64,000 nucleotides of DNA from Patescibacteria group bacterium (GTDB lineage Bacteria > Patescibacteriota > Minisyncoccia > Phycocordibacterales > Phycocordibacteraceae). The position numbers and the translations under genes were made by a program. The notes beneath the pieces are model-generated. The model had not been told where the DNA came from and did not search any database. It saw only the letters and a program-made list of their open reading frames with translations. The stretch is from the NCBI GenBank assembly GCA_029260935.1, contig JAJDCJ010000005.1:16073-80072 (forward strand), read 5' to 3'. Positions 2,133-55,350 of the stretch are shown piece by piece (position 1 is the first letter of the stretch; every line of letters starts with the position of its first letter).

Positions 2133-2972
2133 TCAACGCTCCAACTGTCGGAGCGTTTTTCCGTTTGAGATAAAGGTGATGGTTCCGGAGTCTGCCGTAT
2201 TCAAAATGACTGCGCCGTGATTTTCTATTCTATTAAGCACTTCTTGATGTGGGTGACCGTAGCGGTTGTTTTCCCCCGATGAGATAACTACAAAACCCGG
2301 ATTGACTGCCTCTAGAAAAACTTCAGCACTTGAGGTCTTTGATCCATGGTGCCCCGCCTTTAGTACGTCACTCTCTAAACTACTATGATTAATCATAGTA
2401 GTAGTAAGATATTTTTCTATGGCCTGTGGCGAGTCGCCAGTTAAAAGAAATTCTGTTTCTCCATACACTACTCTGATAATTACTGAAGCAGTGTTTGACT
2501 CAATGTCCGAAACATCACGGTCAGGAAATAGCACGTCAGCATATGCACCGCCACCAAGCAGAAAACGCATACCTGAGCGCGCAACAATTTGTTGTGGTGA
2601 ACCCTCCTCAATAATATCTTCTAGACGATTAAAAGCTGGAGAGTCAGAACTGTTTCCTGAGTGAATAAAATATTCAACTGAATAGCGCTCAAGTACATAC
2701 ACCAAGCCACCGATGTGATCTTGGTCGGGATGCGTTGAAATGACTGCATCAAGCGAGCGGTCAAAAAAGGAGAGACGTCCACTCAAACGACGAAGTACGG
2801 CCCGCGTTGCACCACCATCCACTAACACCTGAATACCAGTCGGACCTTCAATTAAAATTGAGTCCCCTTGCCCAACATCCAAAAAAGACACCGTAAGGTT
2901 AGACGGCGTGGGGACGGTATATACAAACACAACGACCACCACCAATACCCCTAAGAAGATACACTGCTTCAT
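2133..2972 (-). CDS. ComEC C-terminal-type metallo-beta-lactamase-fold domain protein (standalone, with N-terminal TM anchor)
   Basis: HxHxDH-like motif (STHPDQDHIGG) and distal GHHGS and GHPH motifs typical of the ComEC MBL domain. A single N-terminal hydrophobic helix is present. Confidence 0.7.
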   Translation of the reverse strand: MKQCIFLGVLVVVVVFVYTVPTPSNLTVSFLDVGQGDSILIEGPTGIQVLVDGGATRAVLRRLSGRLSFFDRSLDAVISTHPDQDHIGGLVYVLERYSVEYFIHSGNSSDSPAFNRLEDIIEEGSPQQIVARSGMRFLLGGGAYADVLFPDRDVSDIESNTASVIIRVVYGETEFLLTGDSPQAIEKYLTTTMINHSSLESDVLKAGHHGSKTSSAEVFLEAVNPGFVVISSGENNRYGHPHQEVLNRIENHGAVILNTADSGTITFISNGKTLRQLER

Positions 2973-3042
2973 ACACTACATCATAGTGTGAAATTTTTAT
3001 TGAAAATACCTTACCTCTCACGTTACGCAAAACACAAACAGT

Positions 3043-3651
3043 GTGCAAGGTACCATGCTACACTCAAAATATATGTATACACCCCAATCATTTAAATTTA
3101 AAACACTGGACGGGATTTCAGAGAAACAACTTGACGTCCATATCAAGCTCTACGAAGGGTATGTGAAGCACGTGAATCGCCTCTTTGAGGTGCAAACTGA
3201 GTTGAAGAAAGACCCGGAAAAAAACGCGTATGCGCTTTCCGAAGTAACGCGTAGACTCGGCTTTGAGTGGAACGGTATGCGTATGCACGAACACTACTTT
3301 GAACAATGGGAAGGCGGACACATTCCTCTTTCAAAAGAACTTGAGGGCGCGCTTGCCGCACAGTGGGGTGGTGACATGACGCATATGGTCAATGAATTTA
3401 AAGCGGTCGCTCTGATGCGTGGCATCGGCTGGACACTACTTTCCCAGGATAATAAAACAAAACAGTTCATCATCCACTGGGTTTCCGACCACGAACTTGG
3501 ACAACTCAACGACACCACTACCCTCATTGCCCTTGATATGTGGGAGCATGCTTTCATGGTTGACTACGCACCTTCTGAAAAAAATAGCTATATAGAAGCG
3601 TGGTTTAAGAACCTGAACGGAGAAGTAATCTCTTCTCGTTTCCTCGGATAA
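3043..3651 (+). CDS. sodA: Fe/Mn superoxide dismutase
   Basis: DMWEHAF(M)VDY metal-ligand motif and N-terminal HH.KH.....N motifs; about 200 aa. Confidence 0.85.
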   Translation: MQGTMLHSKYMYTPQSFKFKTLDGISEKQLDVHIKLYEGYVKHVNRLFEVQTELKKDPEKNAYALSEVTRRLGFEWNGMRMHEHYFEQWEGGHIPLSKELEGALAAQWGGDMTHMVNEFKAVALMRGIGWTLLSQDNKTKQFIIHWVSDHELGQLNDTTTLIALDMWEHAFMVDYAPSEKNSYIEAWFKNLNGEVISSRFLG

Positions 3652-5125
3652 GAACATATCCAAGCGTTGCATAGGACAGAGCGACAACGACAAGTGCACC
3701 CCACATAAAAGATTGTGGAATAGTGAGGGAAGCAAACGGCAGACCTCCAAACCAGACTGAGACTTTGAGTATATAGATGAGCAGGGCTTCAGTAATAACC
3801 GTTACCGGAAAAGCAATGACGGGGCTTATAAACGAAAGCATACTCGCTATAAATCCAAACGCCATTGCCCATGGAACAGCACCAATAACTGCAACGTTTG
3901 CAATAGGAGAAACTATTGAGACACTTCCAATTGAAACAATCAAAAGCGGTAGCACTGAAGCTTGCGCCACTATGGTAGCACCGGCAATATCACGAATACC
4001 AAAAAACGTGGGAAGAAAAGTGAGTTTTTTTGCCACGGGGTCAGCGGCAAGGATAATGCCGGCCGTTGCCAGAAACGATAACTGAAATGACAGGTTGAAA
4101 AGTAGTATGTAAGGATTTATCAAAACCATAATGGCACCAGCCAGTAATAGCGCGCGAAGCGCGCTATGGGGTCTTTTCAAAACAGACGCCACAATAATCA
4201 GCGTCGCCATTATTGAAGCGCGCACTGTCGTTTCACTTGCCCCTGTCATAAGTGCAAAAGCAATAATGCCGATACCTGCCGTTGAAAAACTCATCACGCG
4301 TGGGAGGAAAAAACTAGTTGTTTTTAAAAAGGCGTGTGCAACCAAAGAAACGTTGTACCCGGACAACACGATCATATGCACAACACCCGCTTTTTGAAAC
4401 GACGTATACAGTTCTTCCCCTAACGATTGACGCTCACCGAGTAACAAACCAGAAAGGAGTGGTGCCTCCGGGTCAGGAAGTATGGTTTCAATACGCCTCA
4501 CCAAAGTGTTTTTTACTTTTTGCAAAAACGAAACTACAGGATTACCACCTGTATGTTTTTCAACTGAAACCTGTGCGAAGGAAACGGTGTGTGTAATATG
4601 TCGTGCATATAAATAACGCTCATAATCAAAGGTGCGCCCTGAGTCAGTTATAAAAGACTCTGGTTTTTTCAACACACCCCTGACACGCACATAATCTCCA
4701 TAAACAATTTCAGTAAATGGATTTGCGGAAACCAGAACCACACCATCTACTTCATTATCGTTTACTGAAGTAACCTTCATACGAAAACGAACGGAAGATT
4801 CCGTATACTCAGGCGACGCAATAACACTACCGAGCACTACACTTTGCCCCTGTTCAAACGCTCCAAGTTCATTTGTGAATGACACATCAAATATAAAAAC
4901 GCGCGCAGTACCTAAGAGAGACGAGAAAAAGAATACACTTAGAATAATATACAATGCCTTTCTGCTGTGTATCGTCAAAAAAGAAAGCGCGAGTGTAGCG
5001 AGCGCGAGTGTAATAAAAAAAAGCAGTGCTATAAATGCACTACTTACTGTTCCTACTAAAACACCGAATACTATACCGCTAACAACTAACGGCAACACGA
5101 GGTTACGCCGGGTTATCCATTGCAT
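3605..5125 (-). CDS. comEC: ComEC/Rec2 DNA internalisation channel (DUF4131 + competence domain), lacking the MBL domain
   Basis: Polytopic membrane protein with an N-terminal OB-like soluble insert and a C-terminal multi-TM competence domain. It sits beside the separate MBL-domain gene. Confidence 0.7.
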   Translation of the reverse strand: MQWITRRNLVLPLVVSGIVFGVLVGTVSSAFIALLFFITLALATLALSFLTIHSRKALYIILSVFFFSSLLGTARVFIFDVSFTNELGAFEQGQSVVLGSVIASPEYTESSVRFRMKVTSVNDNEVDGVVLVSANPFTEIVYGDYVRVRGVLKKPESFITDSGRTFDYERYLYARHITHTVSFAQVSVEKHTGGNPVVSFLQKVKNTLVRRIETILPDPEAPLLSGLLLGERQSLGEELYTSFQKAGVVHMIVLSGYNVSLVAHAFLKTTSFFLPRVMSFSTAGIGIIAFALMTGASETTVRASIMATLIIVASVLKRPHSALRALLLAGAIMVLINPYILLFNLSFQLSFLATAGIILAADPVAKKLTFLPTFFGIRDIAGATIVAQASVLPLLIVSIGSVSIVSPIANVAVIGAVPWAMAFGFIASMLSFISPVIAFPVTVITEALLIYILKVSVWFGGLPFASLTIPQSFMWGALVVVALSYATLGYVLIRGNEKRLLLRSGS

Positions 5126-5533: not shown

Positions 5534-7246
5534 TTATTGGTTAACGGTCATTGTAGGATCTTCTTTTAATTCTAACGCTTCCAAACGAAGACGACGTTCT
5601 TTTTTATGACCAAAAGAAGACTCTTCAAAAGAACCAGTAACTGAGACACAGTCGCCTAGAGATAGTAGCGCAATAGTGTCTCTGAAAGTATTTCTCTGTA
5701 GGAAAAAACTGATCGCATCAATAGTGTGCCCGTGGTCATCCGAAAGTGTGAGGCGTACGTGTTCTTTATGTGCACCAAAATAAATAATCTTTTCTATACG
5801 CACGTTTTGTAAATGCATAAGCGGCTTTGGGTTTGAAACACCATAGGGTGCCAGAGAACGTAGCGAAGTATAAAAAGAACTGTTCAACTCAGAAATAATG
5901 ATTGAAATATCTGCACCAAGCTTCGTTGTTTCATTTTTTGTATTTTCCTGTGCAACGCGCGCATAGACACCTGAAAGTGTCTCCTGTAAGGTATGCACCG
6001 CTTCAGTTTTTGCAGAAAAGCCACCGGCTTTTTCATGTCCTCCGTATTCTTCAAATGAATCGGAGGCGCCTTTCATTAAGGAAACAACATTTACACTTCC
6101 ATCTGAACGACATGAACCTTTAATAAGGTCACCGTCTTTCCCCCACAAACACACGGTACGCTTATACGTCTCAACAACACTGGAGGCGGCGATACCTAAC
6201 AGTGCCGGGTTCCAGTCCGGGTTTCCAAGCACCACTACACTGTCAAGCGAAACACCTTCAAGTCGTCTTTTTACTTCTTTTGCAACACGGGCGCCGTCTA
6301 GTTTTCGTGCATTATTTAACTTTATTAATTCTTTCGCTAATTCATCAGCGCGAAATCTGTCTTTTGTGGTGAGAAGTTCAAATGCAAGCATTGGACTTTT
6401 CATACGGCTGGAGGCATTCACCTTGGGGGCAATTGAAAAACTAATATCATCTTCAATAACTGATGAAAGTGGCACTCGCATTTTCTCAAGCAAGGTACGA
6501 AGACCTATGCGTCTGCCACGATGCAATACCATAAGTCCGTAATGAACTAATGTCCTATTTTCACCAATTAACGGAACAACATCAGCAACTGTTGCAACGG
6601 CAACTAAATCAAGCAACCACTTCTCAGTCCCTGTAGGTACCGTGACGCCACCTTTTTGTAAAAATGCCTCAACTAATTTGAATGCGACACCCGTTCCACA
6701 CAGCTCGGAAAATGGATATGCACAGTGTTCTTGATGCGGATTTAATATAGAAACTGCATCAGGTAATTCCTCAACCTCCTCACCTCCTTCATCTGAAACG
6801 CGCCTTGGTAAGTGATGATCAGTGATGATGGTGTCAATACCTAACTTCTTTGCGTAGGTCACTTCATCAAAAGCAACAATACCATTATCAACGGTGATAA
6901 TGAGTGCAACATGTTGTTCTTTGAGCGAGTCTATTCCTTTTTTATTAAGCCCATACCCCTCACTTCTCTCAGGAATATAAAACACTGCCGGATACTTAAT
7001 GAGCGTGAAAAAATCTGACATGAGCGCCGCTCCAGGAACACCGTCACAGTCATAGTCGCCCCACACCGCAATCACTTCGTTACTTTCAATCGCTTTTTTT
7101 ATACGTGCAACCGCACTGTCCATACCTCGCATAAGGAATGGGTCTGGTCTCTCTTCATACTGAGGGTTAAGGAATGTCGCCTGTTCACTACCTACAATAC
7201 CCCTCTCTTCAAGAAGGCGGGCAAGTTGTGGGGGAAGAGCTGACAT
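5534..7246 (-). CDS. recJ: Single-stranded-DNA-specific exonuclease RecJ
   Basis: DHH family motifs (DYDCDGV, ITDHH, NGIVAFD...) and a DHHA1 C-terminal region. The start is taken at MSALPPQLARLLEERG. Confidence 0.85.
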   Translation of the reverse strand: MSALPPQLARLLEERGIVGSEQATFLNPQYEERPDPFLMRGMDSAVARIKKAIESNEVIAVWGDYDCDGVPGAALMSDFFTLIKYPAVFYIPERSEGYGLNKKGIDSLKEQHVALIITVDNGIVAFDEVTYAKKLGIDTIITDHHLPRRVSDEGGEEVEELPDAVSILNPHQEHCAYPFSELCGTGVAFKLVEAFLQKGGVTVPTGTEKWLLDLVAVATVADVVPLIGENRTLVHYGLMVLHRGRRIGLRTLLEKMRVPLSSVIEDDISFSIAPKVNASSRMKSPMLAFELLTTKDRFRADELAKELIKLNNARKLDGARVAKEVKRRLEGVSLDSVVVLGNPDWNPALLGIAASSVVETYKRTVCLWGKDGDLIKGSCRSDGSVNVVSLMKGASDSFEEYGGHEKAGGFSAKTEAVHTLQETLSGVYARVAQENTKNETTKLGADISIIISELNSSFYTSLRSLAPYGVSNPKPLMHLQNVRIEKIIYFGAHKEHVRLTLSDDHGHTIDAISFFLQRNTFRDTIALLSLGDCVSVTGSFEESSFGHKKERRLRLEALELKEDPTMTVNQ

Positions 7247-7272
7247 ACCAAGTATGCTAGCATACTTGGTAT

Positions 7273-19027: not shown

Positions 19028-20500
19028 TTACGTCTCCAATTTTGGGCGGTATTGTAGCGCTTCAAGAATGTGCTGTTCTTCAACGGCGTCTGAGTTTTCC
19101 AAGTCGGCAATGGTGCGTGCCACACGCATAACGCGGTGGTAGGAGCGCGGGGAAAGTTTTAACACGCCGGCTGAGCGTTGCAGTGTTTCAAGTGCAGTAT
19201 CTTTTATGTTGATAACACGCTCAATGTTGCGTGCGCCAATTTCACTGTTAGTGCTTCCATTTCTTGTATCAGCACATGCGCGCGCTTTGAGTATTCGCTT
19301 TAAAACAATTTCACTCGCCTCTCCCCCACCTTTTGAGAGAAGCTTATGAGGGACATGCGGTACCTCAATCCACAAATCAATACGGTCAATGATGGCGCCT
19401 GATAATTTTTTCTGAAAACGTGCAACGTCGCGCGGGTCGGCACGGTCGCTCGGTGGGTTCATTGCGGCAATCAACATAATATTTGCAGGAAACGTCGCAG
19501 TGCCCGACGCACGAGAAACAGTGACATGTCTGTTTTCAAGTGGTTCACGCAATGCTTCAACTGACCGACGATCAAACTCTGGGAACTCATCCATAAACAA
19601 CACACCACGGTGCGCTAGTGTTACTTCCCCGGGCTTTATAAACGTACCACCACCAACTAATGAAACGTACGATGACGTGTGATGCGGACTCCGAAAAGGA
19701 GCCGTGGTAATGGGAGATCCGTCTAACACGCCGGCTACGGAATGAATCGCGGTAACCTCCAAGACCTCGTCAGGTGTAAGTGGTGGTAAAATACCGGCGA
19801 GTGCTTGGGCCAACATTGTTTTGCCGGTGCCGGGTGGCCCACTGAGTGCAACATTATGTCTGCCGGCGGCCGCTATTTCTACTCCACGCTTTGCTGTTTC
19901 TTGACCTGCAATGTCACTCATATCAAGCGTATAGGGAGCGATATATATTTCTGGTGTATGTACTACTTCCTCCAAAGGAGCACTGCCCGTGAGGTGCTCC
20001 ACCAGTTCAGAAAGAGTTTCAACGCCGTAAATGGCAATATCATCAACGAGAGTTGCTTCTTTTGTATTTTTTTTCGGAAGAATAATTGAGGTAAAGCCGT
20101 TGTCACGCGCCGCAAGGGTGGCCGAAAGTGCGCCTTTAATAGGAGAAATAGACCCGTCCAATGAAAGCTCCCCGAGGCACACAGTATTTTTTGAATCAAA
20201 AGAAATTTCCTCGGCTGCAAGTAAATAGGCAAGCGCCATGGGTACATCAAACACCGGACCTTCTTTCTTTACATCGGCCGGTGCGAGCGAGATAACTATT
20301 TTATGGTTTTTACTTTTTGGTGCACTGAAACCCGCATGTTTGATTGCACTACTGACGCGGTCGCGCGCCTCTTCAACCGCCTTACCAGGAAGACCTACAA
20401 CAGTAAACGCATAGAGTCCTTTTGATAAGTCTGCCTCAATTGAAATAATTGGCGCCTTTGGAAACTGAGGCTGTACGCTAAATACGCGGGCAAATGCCAT
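19028..20500 (-). CDS. comM: YifB/ComM family Mg-chelatase-like AAA+ ATPase
   Basis: Lon-like N-terminal domain, Walker A GPPGTGKT, Walker B LFMDEFPEF and a C-terminal ChlI domain. Confidence 0.9.
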   Translation of the reverse strand: MAFARVFSVQPQFPKAPIISIEADLSKGLYAFTVVGLPGKAVEEARDRVSSAIKHAGFSAPKSKNHKIVISLAPADVKKEGPVFDVPMALAYLLAAEEISFDSKNTVCLGELSLDGSISPIKGALSATLAARDNGFTSIILPKKNTKEATLVDDIAIYGVETLSELVEHLTGSAPLEEVVHTPEIYIAPYTLDMSDIAGQETAKRGVEIAAAGRHNVALSGPPGTGKTMLAQALAGILPPLTPDEVLEVTAIHSVAGVLDGSPITTAPFRSPHHTSSYVSLVGGGTFIKPGEVTLAHRGVLFMDEFPEFDRRSVEALREPLENRHVTVSRASGTATFPANIMLIAAMNPPSDRADPRDVARFQKKLSGAIIDRIDLWIEVPHVPHKLLSKGGGEASEIVLKRILKARACADTRNGSTNSEIGARNIERVINIKDTALETLQRSAGVLKLSPRSYHRVMRVARTIADLENSDAVEEQHILEALQYRPKLET

Positions 20501-20568: not shown

Positions 20569-20602
20569 AAGTACATACTACGATTAATCGTAGTATGTAC
20601 TT
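20569..20602. promoter_or_regulatory. 34-bp perfect palindrome overlapping the stop codon of the TrpR-like gene (candidate operator)
   Basis: aagtacatactacgattaatcgtagtatgtactt is self-complementary. Confidence 0.5.
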
Positions 20603-21054
20603 GTACGTGCCGCGCGTCTGAACTCCTTCCATCTACCTCTTCCACGAGGGGGCAAAATACCTCCACGAGCTAAATCGTCAAGAAGGCTTGATAGTGATGA
20701 CCCATCAAACTTTTTTGGATTATTTTTTGCATATCGCACAAGATGTTCATACTGCCCTCTCTTCATACTGCACCATACTCGCCCTATAGTATCAGGGCTC
20801 ACTTTTAGTAATTGTTGTATTTGTGCGAAGCTGTAGTCGCGTGTTAACATCGCGATGATTGCAAAACGTTTTGCTAAAACTACCTGTTCAGAGTCGGTCA
20901 TAAGTTCACTGAAAAGTGCAGACGCATCTCGTTTTGAGTGTGTATGCATAATTGAAGAGACTAACTGGCTATTTATTGCCTCGGCAGTTTCTTTTTTTAT
21001 TTTCTGCTTTGAAATCCTCACCATATAATTCTCATTATATTTTGATAATAACAC
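20584..21054 (-). CDS. TrpR/YerC-like helix-turn-helix DNA-binding protein
   Basis: LAKRFAIIAMLTRDYSFAQIQQLLKVSPDTIGRV HTH segment. The gene is bracketed by two copies of the palindrome ATACTACGATTAATCGTAGTAT. Confidence 0.45.
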   Translation of the reverse strand: MLLSKYNENYMVRISKQKIKKETAEAINSQLVSSIMHTHSKRDASALFSELMTDSEQVVLAKRFAIIAMLTRDYSFAQIQQLLKVSPDTIGRVWCSMKRGQYEHLVRYAKNNPKKFDGSSLSSLLDDLARGGILPPRGRGRWKEFRRAARTSTYYD

Positions 21055-21082
21055 AAAATACTACGATTAATCGTAGTATTTT
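21055..21082. promoter_or_regulatory. 28-bp perfect palindrome in the promoter region of the TrpR-like gene (candidate operator)
   Basis: aaaatactacgattaatcgtagtatttt shares its 22-bp core with the palindrome at 20573-20594 and overlaps a TATTAT -10-like hexamer. Confidence 0.5.
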
Positions 21083-27692: not shown

Positions 27693-27707
27693 ACCTATCG
27701 ACACTTA

Positions 27708-27750
27708 CCCACTTGTGCGAATCCCGGGATTCGCACAAGTGGGTAAAAAA
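27708..27750 (+). terminator. Rho-independent terminator after xerC
   Basis: cccacttgtgcgaatcccgggattcgcacaagtggg followed by an A/T run. Confidence 0.65.
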
Positions 27751-27818: not shown

Positions 27819-27971
27819 ATGCCTAAACCTGAGAAAATATGGGCCGAGGGAGAATACGAAACTTCTAAGACATTGAACGCTTTTTTAAAGTGGGTTGGTG
27901 TCGCAGCAATAATTGCACTTGTGCTTGGAATTCCGTTAGCGGTTGTTTTAAGCAATAAAGACATTTTCTAA
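27819..27971 (+). CDS. Small membrane protein (50 aa), hypothetical
   Basis: ORF MPKPEKIWAEGEYETSKTLNAFLKWVGVAAIIALVLGIPLAVVLSNKDIF with one TM helix, followed by a terminator hairpin at 28021-28055. Confidence 0.35.
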   Translation: MPKPEKIWAEGEYETSKTLNAFLKWVGVAAIIALVLGIPLAVVLSNKDIF

Positions 27972-28020
27972 GAGCATTCTCCAATATCCAGATAGTATCT
28001 TCTTAGCGTAACAGCACAAA

Positions 28021-28055
28021 AGTGTGCGAATCCCGGGATTCGCACACTTTTTTCA
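28021..28055 (+). terminator. Rho-independent terminator sharing the GTGCGAATCCCGGGATTCGCAC core with the xerC terminator
   Basis: aaagtgtgcgaatcccgggattcgcacacttttttc. Confidence 0.6.
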
Positions 28056-41198: not shown

Positions 41199-41300
41199 GT
41201 TCTTGCATCGTCTCCATAAGCATCCTTGCCTCACACTAAACAAAATCCCCCGCGTACGCGGGGGATTCTACCTAAAACCTAGTGACCTAGATCCTAGTCT

Positions 41301-45435: not shown

Positions 45436-45737
45436 AATATTTCAACTCCCTTTATGAGTTGAAACTTCTTTTTACGGTACTGCCGAAAAATTTACGAAAT
45501 GATACACCTAGGATAGGCGGATAAAGATAAACATTCTTGAATATGCGCTCTGATATACGGACATAGCTCTAGTTTCAATTTTTGGTTGGATCATTTTAGT
45601 ATACGTCTTCAGGAGTAACAGGAGTTTCAAATCATCTGAACGGGATTATCAGTAATAACAGTGTGAACATATTCACTATACGCCCGTTTTTTTACCAAAG
45701 CAAATAGTGTGGCGCATCAGGGCTACTGCCTCAACAA

Positions 45738-45768
45738 AAAATCCCGCAATTGCGGGATTTTTTGTTGA
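45738..45768 (-). terminator. Rho-independent terminator downstream of clpP
   Basis: aaaaaatcccgcaattgcgggattttttgtt. Confidence 0.7.
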
Positions 45769-47796: not shown

Positions 47797-47821
47797 ATCC
47801 TACATGATTCTTATCAATAAA

Positions 47822-47858
47822 ACAAAAAACCGAAGCGCGCTTCGGTTTTTTGTTACAA
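47822..47858. terminator. Bidirectional rho-independent terminator
   Basis: aaaaaaccgaagcgcgcttcggttttttgtt. Confidence 0.7.
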
Positions 47859-52340: not shown

Positions 52341-52505
52341 TACATAATACTTTTCTACAAACACAGACATCAAAATATGGACACGGCGTGTCCATATTTT
52401 GATGCGGATAGAGAAAAACTTTTATTGCACAGAAGCAAAACGTATAGCCCCCATGGTGTAAAAATAAGTGTAGGGGTATAGTGAGTACACTCTGCAACTT
52501 TTTTC

Positions 52506-54482: not shown

Positions 54483-55350
54483 TAAAAAAAATAAGGGAGC
54501 ACCGCTTGGGCAACACTTTTTAACGTCACGGTACATCGCGCGCGACGTGTGTGAGGCGGTTGATGTTACCAAAGGTGAAACCATTCTTGAAGTAGGGCCG
54601 GGGAAGGGAATCTTAACCCACGAACTTCTTGAAAAAGGAGCGTCTCTTATTGCAGTTGAAAAAGACTCTGAAATGGTTATAGCTCTCAAAGAAACTTTTG
54701 CAAAAGAAATTTCAAACGGTCAACTGACGCTTTACGAAGAAGATGCGCGCACTTTTTTACTGAATGCTAAGCACTCATTACCGGATGCTGGGTACAAAGT
54801 CGTTGCAAACATTCCGTACTATATAACCGGTGAGTTGTTACGACTTTTTTTAACCGCGCCCGTACAACCAACCGCTGTTTCTTTGTTGGTGCAAAAAGAA
54901 GTTGCCGAACGTATTGCGCGAGAGAAAAAAGAAAGTATTCTTTCGCTTTCAGTTAAGGCGTATGGTACTCCTCGGTATGTAAAAACAGTAAAAGCAGGGA
55001 GTTTCAACCCTGCACCAAAGGTAGACTCTGCGATTCTTGCAATTACAAATATCTCAAGAAAAAATTTCACCCCCAACCCCCATATGCTTGATGTCCGACA
55101 TCAAGCATATGGGGGAGAAGAGGGCGTAGCAGAAAAGGAGAAGAGGTTTTTTGAACTCCTCCATGTCGGCTTTGGACAGAAAAGAAAAACACTCCTTGGC
55201 AATATAAAAAGAGCATTCGGCAGTGAGCACTCAGCAGTGAGCGCTGTGAAAATTGAAAAGGTTTTTGAAAAATGCAACCTAGATAAAAAAGTGCGGGCGG
55301 AGGATGTGCCACTTGAAACATGGCTCATCCTTGCGCGAGAGCTTTTATAG
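54454..55350 (+). CDS. rsmA: 16S rRNA (adenine1518/1519-N6)-dimethyltransferase RsmA/KsgA
   Basis: LGQHFL start motif, VLEVGPGKGILT SAM motif and NIPY motif. Overlaps the pcrA end. Confidence 0.85.
   Translation: MVVLMALFSNKKNKGAPLGQHFLTSRYIARDVCEAVDVTKGETILEVGPGKGILTHELLEKGASLIAVEKDSEMVIALKETFAKEISNGQLTLYEEDARTFLLNAKHSLPDAGYKVVANIPYYITGELLRLFLTAPVQPTAVSLLVQKEVAERIAREKKESILSLSVKAYGTPRYVKTVKAGSFNPAPKVDSAILAITNISRKNFTPNPHMLDVRHQAYGGEEGVAEKEKRFFELLHVGFGQKRKTLLGNIKRAFGSEHSAVSAVKIEKVFEKCNLDKKVRAEDVPLETWLILARELL

What the first reader, a model, noticed from the sequence alone, without database searches (positions are those of the whole stretch)
20569..21082. TrpR-like HTH gene bracketed by two copies of a long perfect palindrome, one spanning its stop codon
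Seen in sequence:
- A 34-bp perfect palindrome at 20569-20602 and a 28-bp perfect palindrome at 21055-21082 share the core ATACTACGATTAATCGTAGTAT.
- The upstream copy overlaps a TATTAT -10-like hexamer 10-20 nt before the ATG.
- The downstream copy contains the TAA stop.

Inference: perfect palindromes of this length are rare by chance. The likely readings are an autoregulatory operator pair bound by the encoded dimeric HTH protein (possibly looping), or a tiny mobile/addiction-type module with palindromic ends.
Basis: partly seen in the sequence, partly recalled or inferred. Interest (0 to 1): 0.55.

Follow-up and report, generated by a model that had tools for sequence, protein, structure and literature searches.

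The report
Repressor gene bracketed by its own operators
A small Trp-repressor-like DNA-binding protein gene carries the same long palindrome at both ends; about 80 related loci do the same, each lineage with its own palindrome, so these are most likely the protein's own binding sites, in an uncharacterised gene layout.

Summary
Perfect palindromes of 34 bp (20569-20602) and 28 bp (21055-21082) share a 22-mer found nowhere else in the window.

- **The gene.** It lies on the minus strand (21024..20584, 146 aa, Pfam Trp_repressor). So 21055-21082 is the promoter-side copy, and 20569-20602 spans the TAA stop.
- **Related loci.** In 76 of 81, the same motif of at least 10 nt lies on both sides of the gene.
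- **Lineage-specific motif.** It is TACGATTAATCGTA in this clade and TATCATATATGATA in the largest clade. It tracks changes in the recognition helix.
- **Not mobile.** Neighbours are housekeeping genes in several conserved contexts. There are no phage relatives, and extra copies are rare.
- **A third site.** A variant at 2379-2402, inside a ComEC-type MBL gene, is conserved in two orthologous genes.

Best reading: these are the protein's own operators. The 5' copy sits on or next to the core promoter and mediates autorepression. The role of the 3' copy (loop, roadblock or hairpin) is unresolved. Binding is inferred, not shown. The mobile-element and REP readings are rejected.

One thing stays unexplained: many sites are perfectly symmetric well beyond the shared core, up to 64 bp.

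This is a new variant of a known kind.

The parts
20584..21024 (-). Gene for a 146-aa TrpR-fold HTH protein, called X here. It has a TrpR/HisR-like domain (about residues 11-100) and a family-specific C-terminal extension with an amphipathic helix and a PPRGRGRW motif.
   Evidence: ORF list. Pfam PF01371, E 9.9e-12. Closest solved structures are the HisR/YerC-type proteins 3FRW, 3G1C and 3KOR. The AF2 model has pLDDT 74-93 (10-residue block means) over residues 11-100, and the top Foldseek hits are TrpR/HisR. The start codon was chosen from the N-terminal alignment with homologs.
21055..21082 (.). 5' (promoter-side) palindrome AAAATACTACGATTAATCGTAGTATTTT, the proposed primary operator O1. Its centre lies 44 nt upstream of the ATG, and its end abuts an extended -10.
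   Evidence: Homolog loci have the same core 0-30 nt from the start codon. The consensus scan also flags it as terminator-like on the minus strand.
20569..20602 (.). 3' palindrome AAGTACATACTACGATTAATCGTAGTATGTACTT, the proposed auxiliary operator O2. Its left arm encodes the last residues TSTYYD and the stop codon TAA (20586-20584). Its centre is 483 bp from O1 and 85 nt upstream of the comM start.
   Evidence: Stop-spanning copies occur in L002-L004; copies 10-24 nt after the stop occur in L005-L007. Its RNA hairpin is predicted at -19.8 kcal/mol.
21034..21053 (-). Promoter-like elements between O1 and the ATG: extended -10 TGTTATTAT (21053-21045) and TATAAT (21039-21034).
   Evidence: Read from the sequence. 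The consensus scan did not call them as a full -35/-10 pair, so this is an inference.
2379..2402 (.). Third, variant site ACTACTATGATTAATCATAGTAGT, a 24-bp perfect palindrome. It carries a symmetric C>T / G>A change relative to the core. It lies inside the ComEC-type metallo-beta-lactamase gene (2133..2972, minus strand) and codes for TTMINHSS.
   Evidence: The orthologous genes in L102 and L103 keep CACTATGATTAATCATAGTG at the same place, although flanking synonymous positions differ and this protein loop is variable in 117 other homologs.
19028..20500 (-). Downstream co-directional neighbour comM/yifB (Mg-chelatase-like AAA+). It may be influenced by O2 in this clade, but it is not shown to be part of the unit.
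   Evidence: Pfam. Synteny DksA-X-ComM in L002, L003, L004 (one extra gene between DksA and X) and L006. In L002 a promoter-like TAGACC-17-TAAAAT starts 4 nt after the 3' palindrome. In most other family loci the downstream neighbour is convergent.

Best explanation
The two palindromes are the cognate DNA binding sites of the TrpR-fold protein encoded between them.

- **Binding (inferred).** A dimer of the protein recognises the dyad-symmetric core TACGATTAATCGTA. The site has the same ~20-bp palindromic size and TACG-N6-CGTA layout (cf. TTTA-N6-TAAA) as the published HisR operator motif.
- **5' copy (inferred from position).** It sits on or directly against the core promoter of the gene. Occupancy would shut off the protein's own transcription, giving negative autoregulation.
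- **3' copy (inferred; mechanism open).** It lies at or just after the stop codon and is a second operator of the same specificity. Most likely it reinforces repression, either by looping to the 5' copy across about 460-480 bp or by acting as a protein roadblock. As an RNA or DNA hairpin it may also mark the 3' end of the transcript.
- **C-terminal extension (speculative).** The roughly 45-residue extension, with an amphipathic helix and a PPxxGRGRW motif, is absent from TrpR and HisR. It is the obvious candidate for higher-order assembly or for minor-groove contact with the AT-rich centre of the site.
- **Other sites (shown as sequence conservation).** A few further sites exist, such as the conserved one inside the ComEC-type MBL gene. 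The protein therefore probably has a small regulon beyond itself.

What is shown: the sequence facts, the conservation, the co-variation and the synteny. What is inferred: binding, repression and looping.
For: - **Fold and family.** Pfam Trp_repressor above its cut-off. The nearest solved structures are HisR/YerC-type proteins, and the N-terminal AF2 model is confident. TrpR and HisR bind 20-bp palindromes, and about half of hisR genes carry a site upstream of themselves (PMC9413887).
- **Close homologs.** In 6 of 6 loci at 51-57% protein identity, the core TACGATTAATCGTA is unchanged on both sides of the gene. The one exception is a single central base in all three L006 sites. This holds in two different gene contexts, DksA-X-ComM and LigA-X-GatC, so the sites go with X and not with its neighbours.
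- **Family-wide pattern.** 76 of 81 loci share at least 10 identical nt between the 5' and 3' flanks, and 65 share at least 12; controls gave 13 and 2 of 243. In the largest clade, 44 of 45 loci have exactly two copies of TATCATATATGATA, one on each side, with one extra copy in 133.5 kb of flanks.
- **Lineage-specific motifs.** Each lineage has its own palindrome, for example CTACAGTTAACTGTAG, GCATCGGTTAACCGATGC, ATGGTTCGAACCAT and AATGAATCGATTCATT. Within the largest clade, recognition-helix variants go with site variants...SPATIxRMSL with TATCATATATGATA...SYPTLSRMSL with TAACATATATGTTA, and ...TTIxKMSL with the ATACAGTAT type.
- **Promoter position.** In the largest clade the 5' copies conserve TGATATACT overlapping the right arm, with the ATG about 18 nt further on; the 3' copies keep the palindrome but not that element. 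The scan also calls TATCAT inside the palindrome as a -10. In the window an extended -10 abuts the palindrome.
- **The core is not a terminator.** In the largest clade the 14-bp core alone folds at only -0.9 kcal/mol. The downstream neighbour is often convergent, so the 3' copy is not the operator of the next gene.
Against: - No binding, expression or oligomer data exist; everything rests on comparative sequence evidence.
- Co-variation of sites and protein would also arise if site-gene-site simply diverged as one unit. The argument depends on the cores being far more conserved than the proteins, and on both copies changing together.
- Many sites are perfectly symmetric well beyond the part shared by the two copies: 19 of 96 sites by at least 5 nt, against 0.09 expected. 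There are 64-bp and 52-bp perfect palindromes in L028. A dimer footprint does not explain this. It points to an added hairpin or cruciform role, or to a palindrome-perfecting mutation process.
- Helical phasing between the two copies is only weakly non-random, and the test is confounded by relatedness.
- The C-terminal part of the model is of low confidence.
- The same 18-mer occurs in 9 loci of other Patescibacteria MAGs with no X gene within the 8 kb held, some inside housekeeping genes. A plain self-repressor does not predict this.
Confidence: 0.7

Rival explanations
1. The palindromes work mainly as nucleic-acid hairpins, not as sites for X. Possible roles are intrinsic or bidirectional terminators, 3'-end stabilisers, or 5' hairpins that hide the start codon in read-through transcripts. 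Under this reading, genes in this genome are simply separated by reused hairpin families.
For: - The consensus scan flags the 5' copy as terminator-like (12 pairs followed by TTTTGTGTT).
- Predicted RNA hairpins are -11.7 and -19.8 kcal/mol.
- Flanks are often A-rich on one side and T-rich on the other.
- Private symmetric flanks with compensatory changes look like stems, for example TAATG..CATTA against CAATG..CATTG in L101.
- In L006 and L007 the 5' palindrome reaches the start codon.
- Another pair of palindromes in this window (27705-27746 and 28018-28051) shares a core, brackets a small ORF and looks like GC-stem terminators.
Against: - A stem needs only complementarity, yet the core sequence is invariant across loci whose proteins are 51-57% identical, and identical in both copies.
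- The largest clade's conserved core is a 14-bp all-weak palindrome of -0.9 kcal/mol with no U-tract.
- Mismatches show no bias towards G.U pairs on the sense strand.
- The 5' copy overlaps -10-like elements. Much of it would therefore not be in the gene's own transcript.
- dksA already has its own terminator-like hairpin at 21188-21170.
- The motif type tracks the recognition helix.
- No Rfam family matches.
Confidence: 0.12
2. X is not primarily a self-repressor. It would be the reader of a low-copy chromosomal address: a lineage-specific palindrome placed at both ends of its own gene and at a few other, often intragenic, positions. Its role would be like ParB-parS, Noc-NBS or MatP-matS (segregation, nucleoid organisation) or a transcriptional insulator or roadblock.
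For: - The intragenic site in the ComEC-type MBL gene is conserved in orthologs in an otherwise variable protein loop.
- L102 has another site inside a methyltransferase gene.
- The 18-mer is found 9 times in Patescibacteria MAGs, inside tsaD, murC-like and alaS-like ORFs and in intergenic palindrome arrays. My own estimate of the chance expectation is about 0.2-0.4 for that share of the database; it assumes roughly 1-2% of the bases and is not a tool result.
- X is 68-100% identical within the largest clade, where the neighbouring ThrRS drops to 41%. That suggests a core function.
- Intragenic sites have no obvious promoter logic.
Against: - There is no ParB-type N-terminal or CTPase domain, and no partner ATPase gene next to X.
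- Site density near X is very low.
- The 5' copy is positioned like an ordinary promoter operator.
- None of the MAG loci carrying the 18-mer shows X within the 8 kb held, so the link between those sites and X is unproven.
Confidence: 0.13
3. The unit palindrome-gene-palindrome is a small mobile or selfish cassette, with REP/RAYT-like, MITE-like or addiction-type ends.
For: - The gene is flanked by two copies of one element in direct register.
- It occurs in at least 8 different gene contexts.
- There are weak HMM echoes of transposase HTH domains: HTH_Tnp_ISL3 at E 0.0035 and IS630 at E 0.017, both far below their cut-offs.
Against: - There is no catalytic domain and no second gene.
- Contexts are blocks of housekeeping genes shared by many loci (ThrRS-X-GyrB in 7, GAPDH-X-DapF in 7).
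- X identity correlates positively with neighbour identity (r 0.27-0.81).
- There is one X gene per locus and no second copy in the 64-kb window.
- There are no viral relatives and no PHROG or PADLOC hits.
- Copy number of the palindrome is low.
Confidence: 0.04

Closest known systems
E. coli TrpR and its autoregulated trpR operator
   Same: Same Pfam family and fold. Both are small helical HTH proteins that act as dimers on a dyad-symmetric operator of about 18-20 bp overlapping their own promoter. Tandem or multiple dimer binding is known for TrpR (PDB 1TRR title). The dimer and autoregulation statements come from PMC9413887 and from general knowledge.
   Different: - The TIGR01321 score is 18.5 against a cut-off of 67.25.
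- X is 146 aa with an extra C-terminal region.
- The operator sequence and half-site spacing differ: here NNACT-N12-AGTNN or TACG-N6-CGTA, against GNACT-N8-AGTNC.
- A second identical site lies at the 3' end of the gene.
- No tryptophan genes are in view, and the corepressor is unknown.
HisR (YerC/YecD family, TIGR02531), the histidine repressor of Firmicutes
   Same: These are the nearest solved structures by sequence profile (3FRW E 4e-9, 3G1C E 1e-8). HisR binds a 20-bp palindrome with the layout cacTTTA-N6-TAAAgtg, the same geometry as TACG-N6-CGTA here. About half of hisR genes have a HisR site upstream of themselves (PMC9413887).
   Different: - X scores below the family cut-off (26.5 against 42.2 bits).
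- HisR proteins are under 100 aa and lack the C-terminal extension.
- HisR regulons are his biosynthesis and transport genes, none of which appear next to X in any locus.
- Paired sites on both sides of the regulator gene are not described for HisR in that paper.
Repressors with a promoter operator plus a distant auxiliary operator (LacI O1/O2, 401 bp apart inside lacZ; lambda CI OR/OL flanking the immunity region)
   Same: Two sites of one specificity, a few hundred bp apart, one at the promoter and one downstream. Here the centre-to-centre distance is 483 bp, with a family median of 462 bp. This is a comparison of mechanism from general knowledge, not a homology claim.
   Different: - The folds are unrelated.
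- Looping needs a tetramer or higher oligomer, which is untested for X.
- Here the auxiliary site marks the 3' end of the regulator's own gene, and this holds across the whole family.
ParB-parS and Noc-NBS type systems
   Same: A highly conserved perfect palindrome of about 16 bp, present in few copies, some inside coding sequences, with copies at the gene of the binding protein itself (general knowledge; compare).
   Different: X has no ParB N-terminal domain and no ParA partner gene. It has a TrpR fold. And the palindrome differs between lineages, whereas parS is nearly universal.

Membership tests
Trp repressor family (Pfam PF01371) | Match to the family HMM above the curated gathering score | tested here: met
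   45.2 bits against a cut-off of 27, E 9.9e-12, residues 20-91.
Trp repressor family (Pfam PF01371) | All-helical TrpR fold with the HTH in the C-terminal half of the domain | tested here: met
   The AF2 model has helices 11-26, 31-41, 44-61, 66-73 and 77-88, with pLDDT 74-93 (10-residue block means) over residues 11-100. The top Foldseek PDB hits are all TrpR or TrpR-like (3KOR, 6F9K, 3FRW; probability 1.0, TM to target 0.65-0.80), although E-values are only 0.02-0.1.
Trp repressor family (Pfam PF01371) | Binds a dyad-symmetric operator of about 18-20 bp as a dimer | not testable with these tools
   Candidate sites of the right size and symmetry flank the gene and co-vary with the recognition helix. 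Binding and oligomeric state need experiments.
Trp repressor family (Pfam PF01371) | Amino-acid corepressor controls DNA binding | not tested
   No ligand could be inferred. No amino-acid biosynthesis genes lie next to X.
YerC/YecD = HisR (NCBIfam TIGR02531) | Score above the curated family cut-off | tested here: not met
   26.5 bits against a cut-off of 42.2. X is therefore a relative, not a member.
YerC/YecD = HisR (NCBIfam TIGR02531) | Protein of about 100 aa controlling his biosynthesis or uptake genes through cacTTTA-N6-TAAAgtg sites | tested here: not met
   X is 146 aa (130-150 across the family) with a conserved C-terminal extension. Its sites have different sequences. Neighbours are ThrRS, GyrB, GAPDH, DapF, ComM, LigA, GatC and others, with no his genes.
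TrpR proper (NCBIfam TIGR01321) | Score above the curated family cut-off | tested here: not met
   18.5 bits against a cut-off of 67.25.
REP elements with RAYT transposase | HUH/Y1 transposase gene flanked by REP palindromes that are also dispersed in many copies | tested here: not met
   The protein is a TrpR-fold HTH with no nuclease domain. There are 2 exact copies and 1 variant in 64 kb, and 1 extra copy in 133 kb in the largest clade.
Insertion sequence / MITE | Terminal inverted repeats, a transposase, target-site duplication, and variable insertion sites among close relatives | tested here: not met
   There is no transposase. The two copies are in direct register and each is itself a palindrome. 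Synteny is conserved and X divergence correlates positively with neighbour divergence. Target-site duplications were not specifically searched for.
Rho-independent terminator | GC-rich stem-loop directly followed by a U-tract | tested here: inconclusive
   The window's 5' copy passes the consensus scan (12 pairs, 3 GC, T-rich tail), and the 3' copy folds at -19.8 kcal/mol but has no T-run. Family-wide the conserved core is too weak (-0.9 kcal/mol) and lacks a U-tract.
ParB-parS partition / Noc-NBS | ParB-type N-terminal (CTP-binding) domain plus HTH; a partner ParA for partition systems | tested here: not met
   No such Pfam or NCBIfam domains were found in X, and no ParA-like neighbour.

The most novel reading that the evidence does not exclude
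X belongs to a deeply conserved, probably Patescibacteria-wide family of TrpR-fold proteins. In this family each lineage would own a private palindromic 'address'. That address is written at both ends of the protein's own gene and at a handful of other places, including conserved positions inside genes such as the ComEC-type MBL gene. The system would then be a chromosomal marking, insulation or organisation device, functionally like parS, NBS or matS, or a competence-linked regulon, and not an ordinary metabolic repressor. In addition, these genomes would have a process that keeps such sites perfectly symmetric far beyond any protein footprint, up to 64 bp. That process could be cruciform or hairpin function, or template-switch 'palindrome perfecting'.
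Probability: 0.15. Interest if true: 0.8.

Novelty: new variant of a known kind. Interest (0 to 1): 0.6.

Why it matters
Regulation in Patescibacteria (the CPR group) is almost unknown, because few of these organisms can be grown. This locus gives a ready-made protein-DNA pair.

- **The family is large and strongly conserved.** It has 1202 clusters at 50% identity with E up to 1e-10. X stays at least 68% identical where the neighbouring ThrRS falls to 41%.
- **The binding site can be read from the genome.** It brackets the gene in nearly every lineage and changes along with the recognition helix. That amounts to a natural specificity table for a TrpR-fold HTH, directly testable by EMSA or DAP-seq.
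- **The layout is unusual.** The constant 5'-plus-3' arrangement was not described in the HisR/TrpR paper read here or in the library searches. It may reveal how very compact genomes insulate a dosage-sensitive regulator.
- **There is a possible link to DNA uptake.** The conserved site inside the ComEC-type gene, together with the comM neighbour in this clade, hints at competence, a process thought to be central to these organisms. This last point is my inference.

If only the plain reading holds, this is a well-documented new subfamily of autoregulated TrpR-like repressors.

Tried and rejected
- **Regulon from exact 18-mer hits in 185,579 species genomes.** There were 14 loci, 9 in Patescibacteria MAGs. 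None has X within the 8 kb held. The neighbours (ruvB-yebC-ruvC, dinB, grpE, the rplB-rpsS spacer, tsaD, murC-like, alaS-like) gave no coherent theme. The 5 hits in unrelated taxa fit my estimate of about 9 chance hits in 596 Gb. I kept this only as evidence that extra sites exist.
- **Helical phasing of the two copies.** Rayleigh n*R^2 was 5.3 at a 10.5-bp period, but many loci are close relatives, so I treat this as inconclusive.
- **G.U-wobble test for a sense-strand RNA hairpin.** No bias was seen in the 3' copies (47 against 37). The opposite bias in the 5' copies is caused by the conserved -10 element. This gives no support for an RNA stem, but the test is weak.
- **Phage or defence origin.** No viral contigs encode a relative, and there are no PHROG or PADLOC hits.
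- **Known RNA families.** Only two chance-level Rfam hits appeared, far below their gathering scores.
- **Terminator reading for the whole family.** Rejected because the largest clade's conserved core cannot form a stable hairpin. It is kept as a possible added role for the long palindromes of this clade.
- **The -35/-10 reading in L002 and L003 (CTGACA-17-TAGTGT-6-ATG, leaderless).** The consensus scan does not call it, because the -10 matches only 3 of 6 positions. It stays my own reading of the sequence.
- **The stop-spanning position as a constraint on the C-terminus.** The aromatic-acidic end (YYD, YFE, YE, FD) persists even where the palindrome lies after the stop. The overlap is therefore clade-specific and not the cause of that motif.
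- **Oligomer or DNA-complex modelling.** This could not be run with the tools allowed.
Full report
**1. What is in the window**

The two palindromes are exactly as reported. Position 20569-20602 reads AAGTACATACTACGATTAATCGTAGTATGTACTT (34 bp), and 21055-21082 reads AAAATACTACGATTAATCGTAGTATTTT (28 bp). Both are perfect.

The shared 22-mer occurs only at these two places in 64 kb, even with 3 mismatches allowed, and in none of 100 dinucleotide shuffles. A shuffled window holds on average 0.07 perfect palindromes with arms of at least 10 nt and 0.01 with arms of at least 12 nt. The real window holds nine with arms of at least 10 nt. This genome is therefore generally rich in long palindromes, several of which look like GC-stem terminators. 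What sets this pair apart is the shared core.

The gene between them is on the minus strand, with ATG at 21024 and TAA at 20586-20584 (146 aa). It follows that:
- The 28-bp copy is on the promoter side.
- The 34-bp copy spans the stop codon. Its left arm encodes TSTYYD and the stop.
It starts 4 nt after it, with TG in front (TGTTATTAT).
- A perfect TATAAT lies 9 nt before the ATG.

Upstream is a DksA/TraR zinc-finger gene with its own terminator-like hairpin. Downstream, in the same direction, is comM/yifB.

**2. The protein**

- It matches Pfam Trp_repressor above the cut-off (45.2 bits).
- It falls below the NCBIfam cut-offs for YerC/YecD (26.5 against 42.2) and for TrpR (18.5 against 67.25).
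- A profile search of solved structures finds the HisR/YerC-type proteins 3FRW, 3G1C and 3KOR first.
- The AF2 model is confident over residues 11-100, and its best Foldseek matches are TrpR and TrpR-like structures.
- Residues 101-146 are a family-specific extension, modelled with low confidence. It holds a leucine-rich helix and a PPxxG[RK]G[RK]W motif, which is present in 72 of 81 family proteins recovered here.
- The family is large: 1202 clusters at 50% identity with E up to 1e-10, nearly all full-length proteins of 130-150 aa.
- No phage relatives, defence families or phage families were found.

**3. Close relatives keep both palindromes**

Six loci encode proteins 51-57% identical to the window's. 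All have a palindrome with the core TACGATTAATCGTA both just upstream of the start codon (0-30 nt away, reaching the ATG in L006 and L007) and at the 3' end. At the 3' end it spans the stop in L002-L004 and lies 10-24 nt after it in L005-L007. The only departure is a single central base in all three L006 sites.

Two different gene contexts occur: DksA-X-ComM and LigA-X-GatCAB. The sites therefore go with X and not with a neighbour. The core is invariant while the proteins have diverged by almost half. That is far more conservation than a stem would need.

**4. The whole family does this, each lineage with its own palindrome**

A metagenome scan returned 80 more distant loci at 27-38% identity.
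- In 76 of 81 loci with enough flank, the 5' and 3' flanks share an identical motif of at least 10 nt. In 65 it is at least 12 nt and in 60 at least 14 nt. Control regions gave 13 of 243 and 2 of 243.
- The motif differs by lineage. It is TATCATATATGATA in the largest clade. Others include CTACAGTTAACTGTAG, GCATCGGTTAACCGATGC, CACTTCAGTTAACTGAAGTG, ACTACGATATATCGTAGT, ATGGTTCGAACCAT, ATTAATCGATTAAT and AATGAATCGATTCATT.
- In the largest clade, 44 of 45 loci have exactly two copies (up to 1 mismatch), one on each side of the gene. Only one further copy occurs in 133.5 kb of flanking DNA.
- Within that clade, variants of the recognition helix go with variants of the site. SPATIxRMSL goes with TATCATATATGATA, SYPTLSRMSL with TAACATATATGTTA, and TTIxKMSL with ATACAGTAT-type sites. 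The window's clade has VSPDT[VI]xR[LVI]W.

Both copies always change together. This is the pattern expected when a trans-acting reader encoded at the locus co-evolves with its sites. The simplest reader is X itself. TrpR-family proteins are documented to bind 20-bp palindromes: TrpR binds TGTAcTnGTnnACnAgTACA and HisR binds cacTTTAnnnnnnTAAAgtg. About half of hisR genes carry their own site upstream (PMC9413887). The layout TACG-N6-CGTA within a conserved palindrome of about 20 bp matches the HisR geometry.

**5. Position relative to the promoter**

In the largest clade the full site is about 28-34 bp: TTCCTTAA-nn-TATCATATATGATA-nn-TTAAGGAA. Dyad symmetry is high at positions 1-7 and 11-14 from the centre and falls to background by position 18.

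The 5' copies conserve TGATATACT, an extended -10, overlapping the right arm, and the ATG follows about 18 nt later. The 3' copies keep the palindrome but not this element. The consensus scan also calls TATCAT inside the palindrome as a -10.

In the window an extended -10 abuts the palindrome. In L002 and L003 I read CTGACA-17 nt-TAGTGT-6 nt-ATG, which would be a leaderless arrangement with the operator filling the spacer. The scan does not call this, so it remains an inference. In every case a protein on the 5' copy would occlude the core promoter. That is classical negative autoregulation.

**6. The 3' copy**

Downstream neighbours are often convergent: GyrB in 11 loci, DapF in 10 and a HAM1-type gene in 7. 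Family-wide, the 3' copy therefore cannot be the operator of the next gene. It belongs to X.

The options are:
- an auxiliary operator for looping (centre-to-centre 483 bp here, family median 462 bp);
- a protein roadblock that insulates X from read-through or convergent transcription;
- a hairpin at the 3' end of the transcript.

The phasing test is weak and confounded by relatedness. The wobble test shows no sign of a sense-strand RNA stem. The C-terminal extension could supply tetramerisation, as it does in LacI, but this is untested. In the DksA-X-ComM clade, a promoter-like element for comM starts 4 nt after the 3' palindrome in L002, so a local effect on comM is possible.

**7. More sites exist, some inside genes**

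The window has a third, variant palindrome, ACTACTATGATTAATCATAGTAGT, at 2379-2402. It lies inside a stand-alone ComEC-type metallo-beta-lactamase gene.

Two orthologous genes (proteins 58-60% identical) from the same sequencing series as L002 and L003 carry CACTATGATTAATCATAGTG at the same position. The 18-bp centre is identical, although nearby synonymous positions differ. The protein loop it encodes (MINHS) is variable in the other 117 homologs examined. This is conservation of a DNA site inside a gene. L102 has a further perfect 28-bp site inside a methyltransferase gene.

The exact 18-mer ACTACGATTAATCGTAGT occurs 14 times in 185,579 species genomes. Nine of these are in Patescibacteria MAGs, against my rough chance estimate of 0.2-0.4 for that share of the database. 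Some lie in the reading frame TTINRS inside housekeeping genes. Others sit in intergenic arrays of several different TTAA-centred palindromes. None has X within the 8 kb held, so their link to X is open.

**8. Not mobile**

Neighbours are housekeeping genes in several recurring contexts (ThrRS-X-GyrB, GAPDH-X-DapF and others). X identity correlates positively with neighbour identity (r 0.27-0.81). X stays at least 68% identical where ThrRS drops to 41%. There is one X gene per locus and none elsewhere in the window.

**9. What remains unexplained**

Many sites are perfectly symmetric beyond the part that the two copies share. Of 96 sites, 26 extend by at least 3 nt (1.5 expected) and 19 by at least 5 nt (0.09 expected). 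Examples:
- the window's AAGTACAT...ATGTACTT against AAAAT...ATTTT;
- symmetric internal substitutions in L101;
- 64-bp and 52-bp perfect palindromes in L028.

The symmetric C>T / G>A change in the ComEC-gene site is of the same kind. A dimer footprint does not need this.

Two explanations are possible. The palindromes may have an added structural role, as a cruciform or as a hairpin in read-through transcripts. Alternatively, a mutational process may copy one arm onto the other; template-switch correction of quasi-palindromes is a known mechanism (general knowledge). I could not separate these.

**10. Verdict**

- The operator-pair reading is well supported by comparative evidence but not by any binding data.
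- The mobile, addiction-module and REP readings are rejected.
- X is a relative of TrpR and HisR but not a member of either curated family.
- The new element is the family-wide arrangement of a lineage-specific palindrome at both ends of the gene. I found no description of it in the held literature.

I rate it a new variant of a known kind, with moderate to high interest.

Noticed in passing
window 27705-27746 and 28018-28051: A second pair of long perfect palindromes (42 bp and 34 bp) shares the core GTGCGAATCCCGGGATTCGCAC. The pair brackets a 50-aa putative membrane ORF (27819..27971, plus strand) just after a XerC-like recombinase gene. With GC-rich stems and A/T runs they look like bidirectional terminators. 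The 'gene bracketed by two copies of one palindrome' layout therefore occurs twice in this window, with different sequences.
   Followed up: partly
window 7245-7272: A 28-bp perfect palindrome, ATACCAAGTATGCTAGCATACTTGGTAT, with no A/T runs. It could be the site of another regulator.
   Followed up: no
window 41244-41267, 45731-45768, 47821-47854: Perfect palindromes with GC stems flanked by A-runs and T-runs (for example TCAACAAAAAATCCCGCAATTGCGGGATTTTTTGTTGA), typical of bidirectional intrinsic terminators. In total the window has nine perfect palindromes with arms of at least 10 nt, against 0.07 expected.
   Followed up: partly
window 52368-52404 and 55077-55115: Two further perfect inverted repeats (18-nt and 19-nt arms, 1-nt spacer), unrelated in sequence to each other and to the finding.
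   Followed up: no
window 2133-5125: ComEC appears split. A stand-alone MBL-domain gene (2133..2972, minus strand) is separated from the membrane ComEC/Rec2 part (3605..5125, minus strand) by an opposite-strand ORF (3043..3651) that looks like a superoxide dismutase. That identification is from the sequence motif only and was not tested.
   Followed up: no
L015 3600-3716 (Parcubacteria MAG JADHUX010000005.1): An unusually long rplB-rpsS spacer of about 500 nt holds four adjacent, different TTAA-centred palindromes: ACTATAGTTAACTGTAGT, ACTACGATTAATCGTAGT, AGTCCAGTTAACTGGACT and GTCTAGTTAACTAGAC. They resemble the cognate sites of different clades of the X family. A small hydrophobic ORF follows.
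   Followed up: partly
L019 7535-7922 (Paceibacterota MAG JBBDKB010000020.1): Another intergenic array of different perfect palindromes: ACTACTCCAGTATACTGGAGTAGT, CTACTTTAATTAATTAAAGTAG, CAATTTTAGTTCGGTTAACCGAACTAAAATTG and CACTACGATTAATCGTAGTG. The same MAG carries the 18-mer on two other contigs, after ruvB (L011) and 79 nt upstream of a dinB-like gene (L012).
   Followed up: partly
L016 905-922, L020 6999-7016, L021 6062-6079, L008 4861-4878: Where the 18-mer ACTACGATTAATCGTAGT lies inside genes (tsaD-like, murC-like, alaS-like, and ruvX-like in a cyanobacterium), it is always read in the frame T-T-I-N-R-S. By eye it replaces residues and is not inserted.
   Followed up: partly
L028 1060-1123 and 1588-1639; L024 2452-2491: Very long perfect palindromes (64, 52 and 40 bp) flank X homologs. 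Only the central 24 bp (L028) is shared between the two copies. Palindromes of this length are usually unstable in bacteria that have SbcCD (general knowledge).
   Followed up: partly
L002 8238-8438: The UvrD/PcrA-type helicase gene downstream of the syntenic block has a precomputed Pfam Intein_splicing hit (1029 aa). Its counterpart in L003 (661 aa) has none.
   Followed up: no
L057 429-442: The only extra exact copy of TATCATATATGATA in 133 kb of largest-clade flanks lies about 60 nt upstream of the uracil-DNA-glycosylase-like gene that precedes X. It is a possible second target promoter.
   Followed up: no
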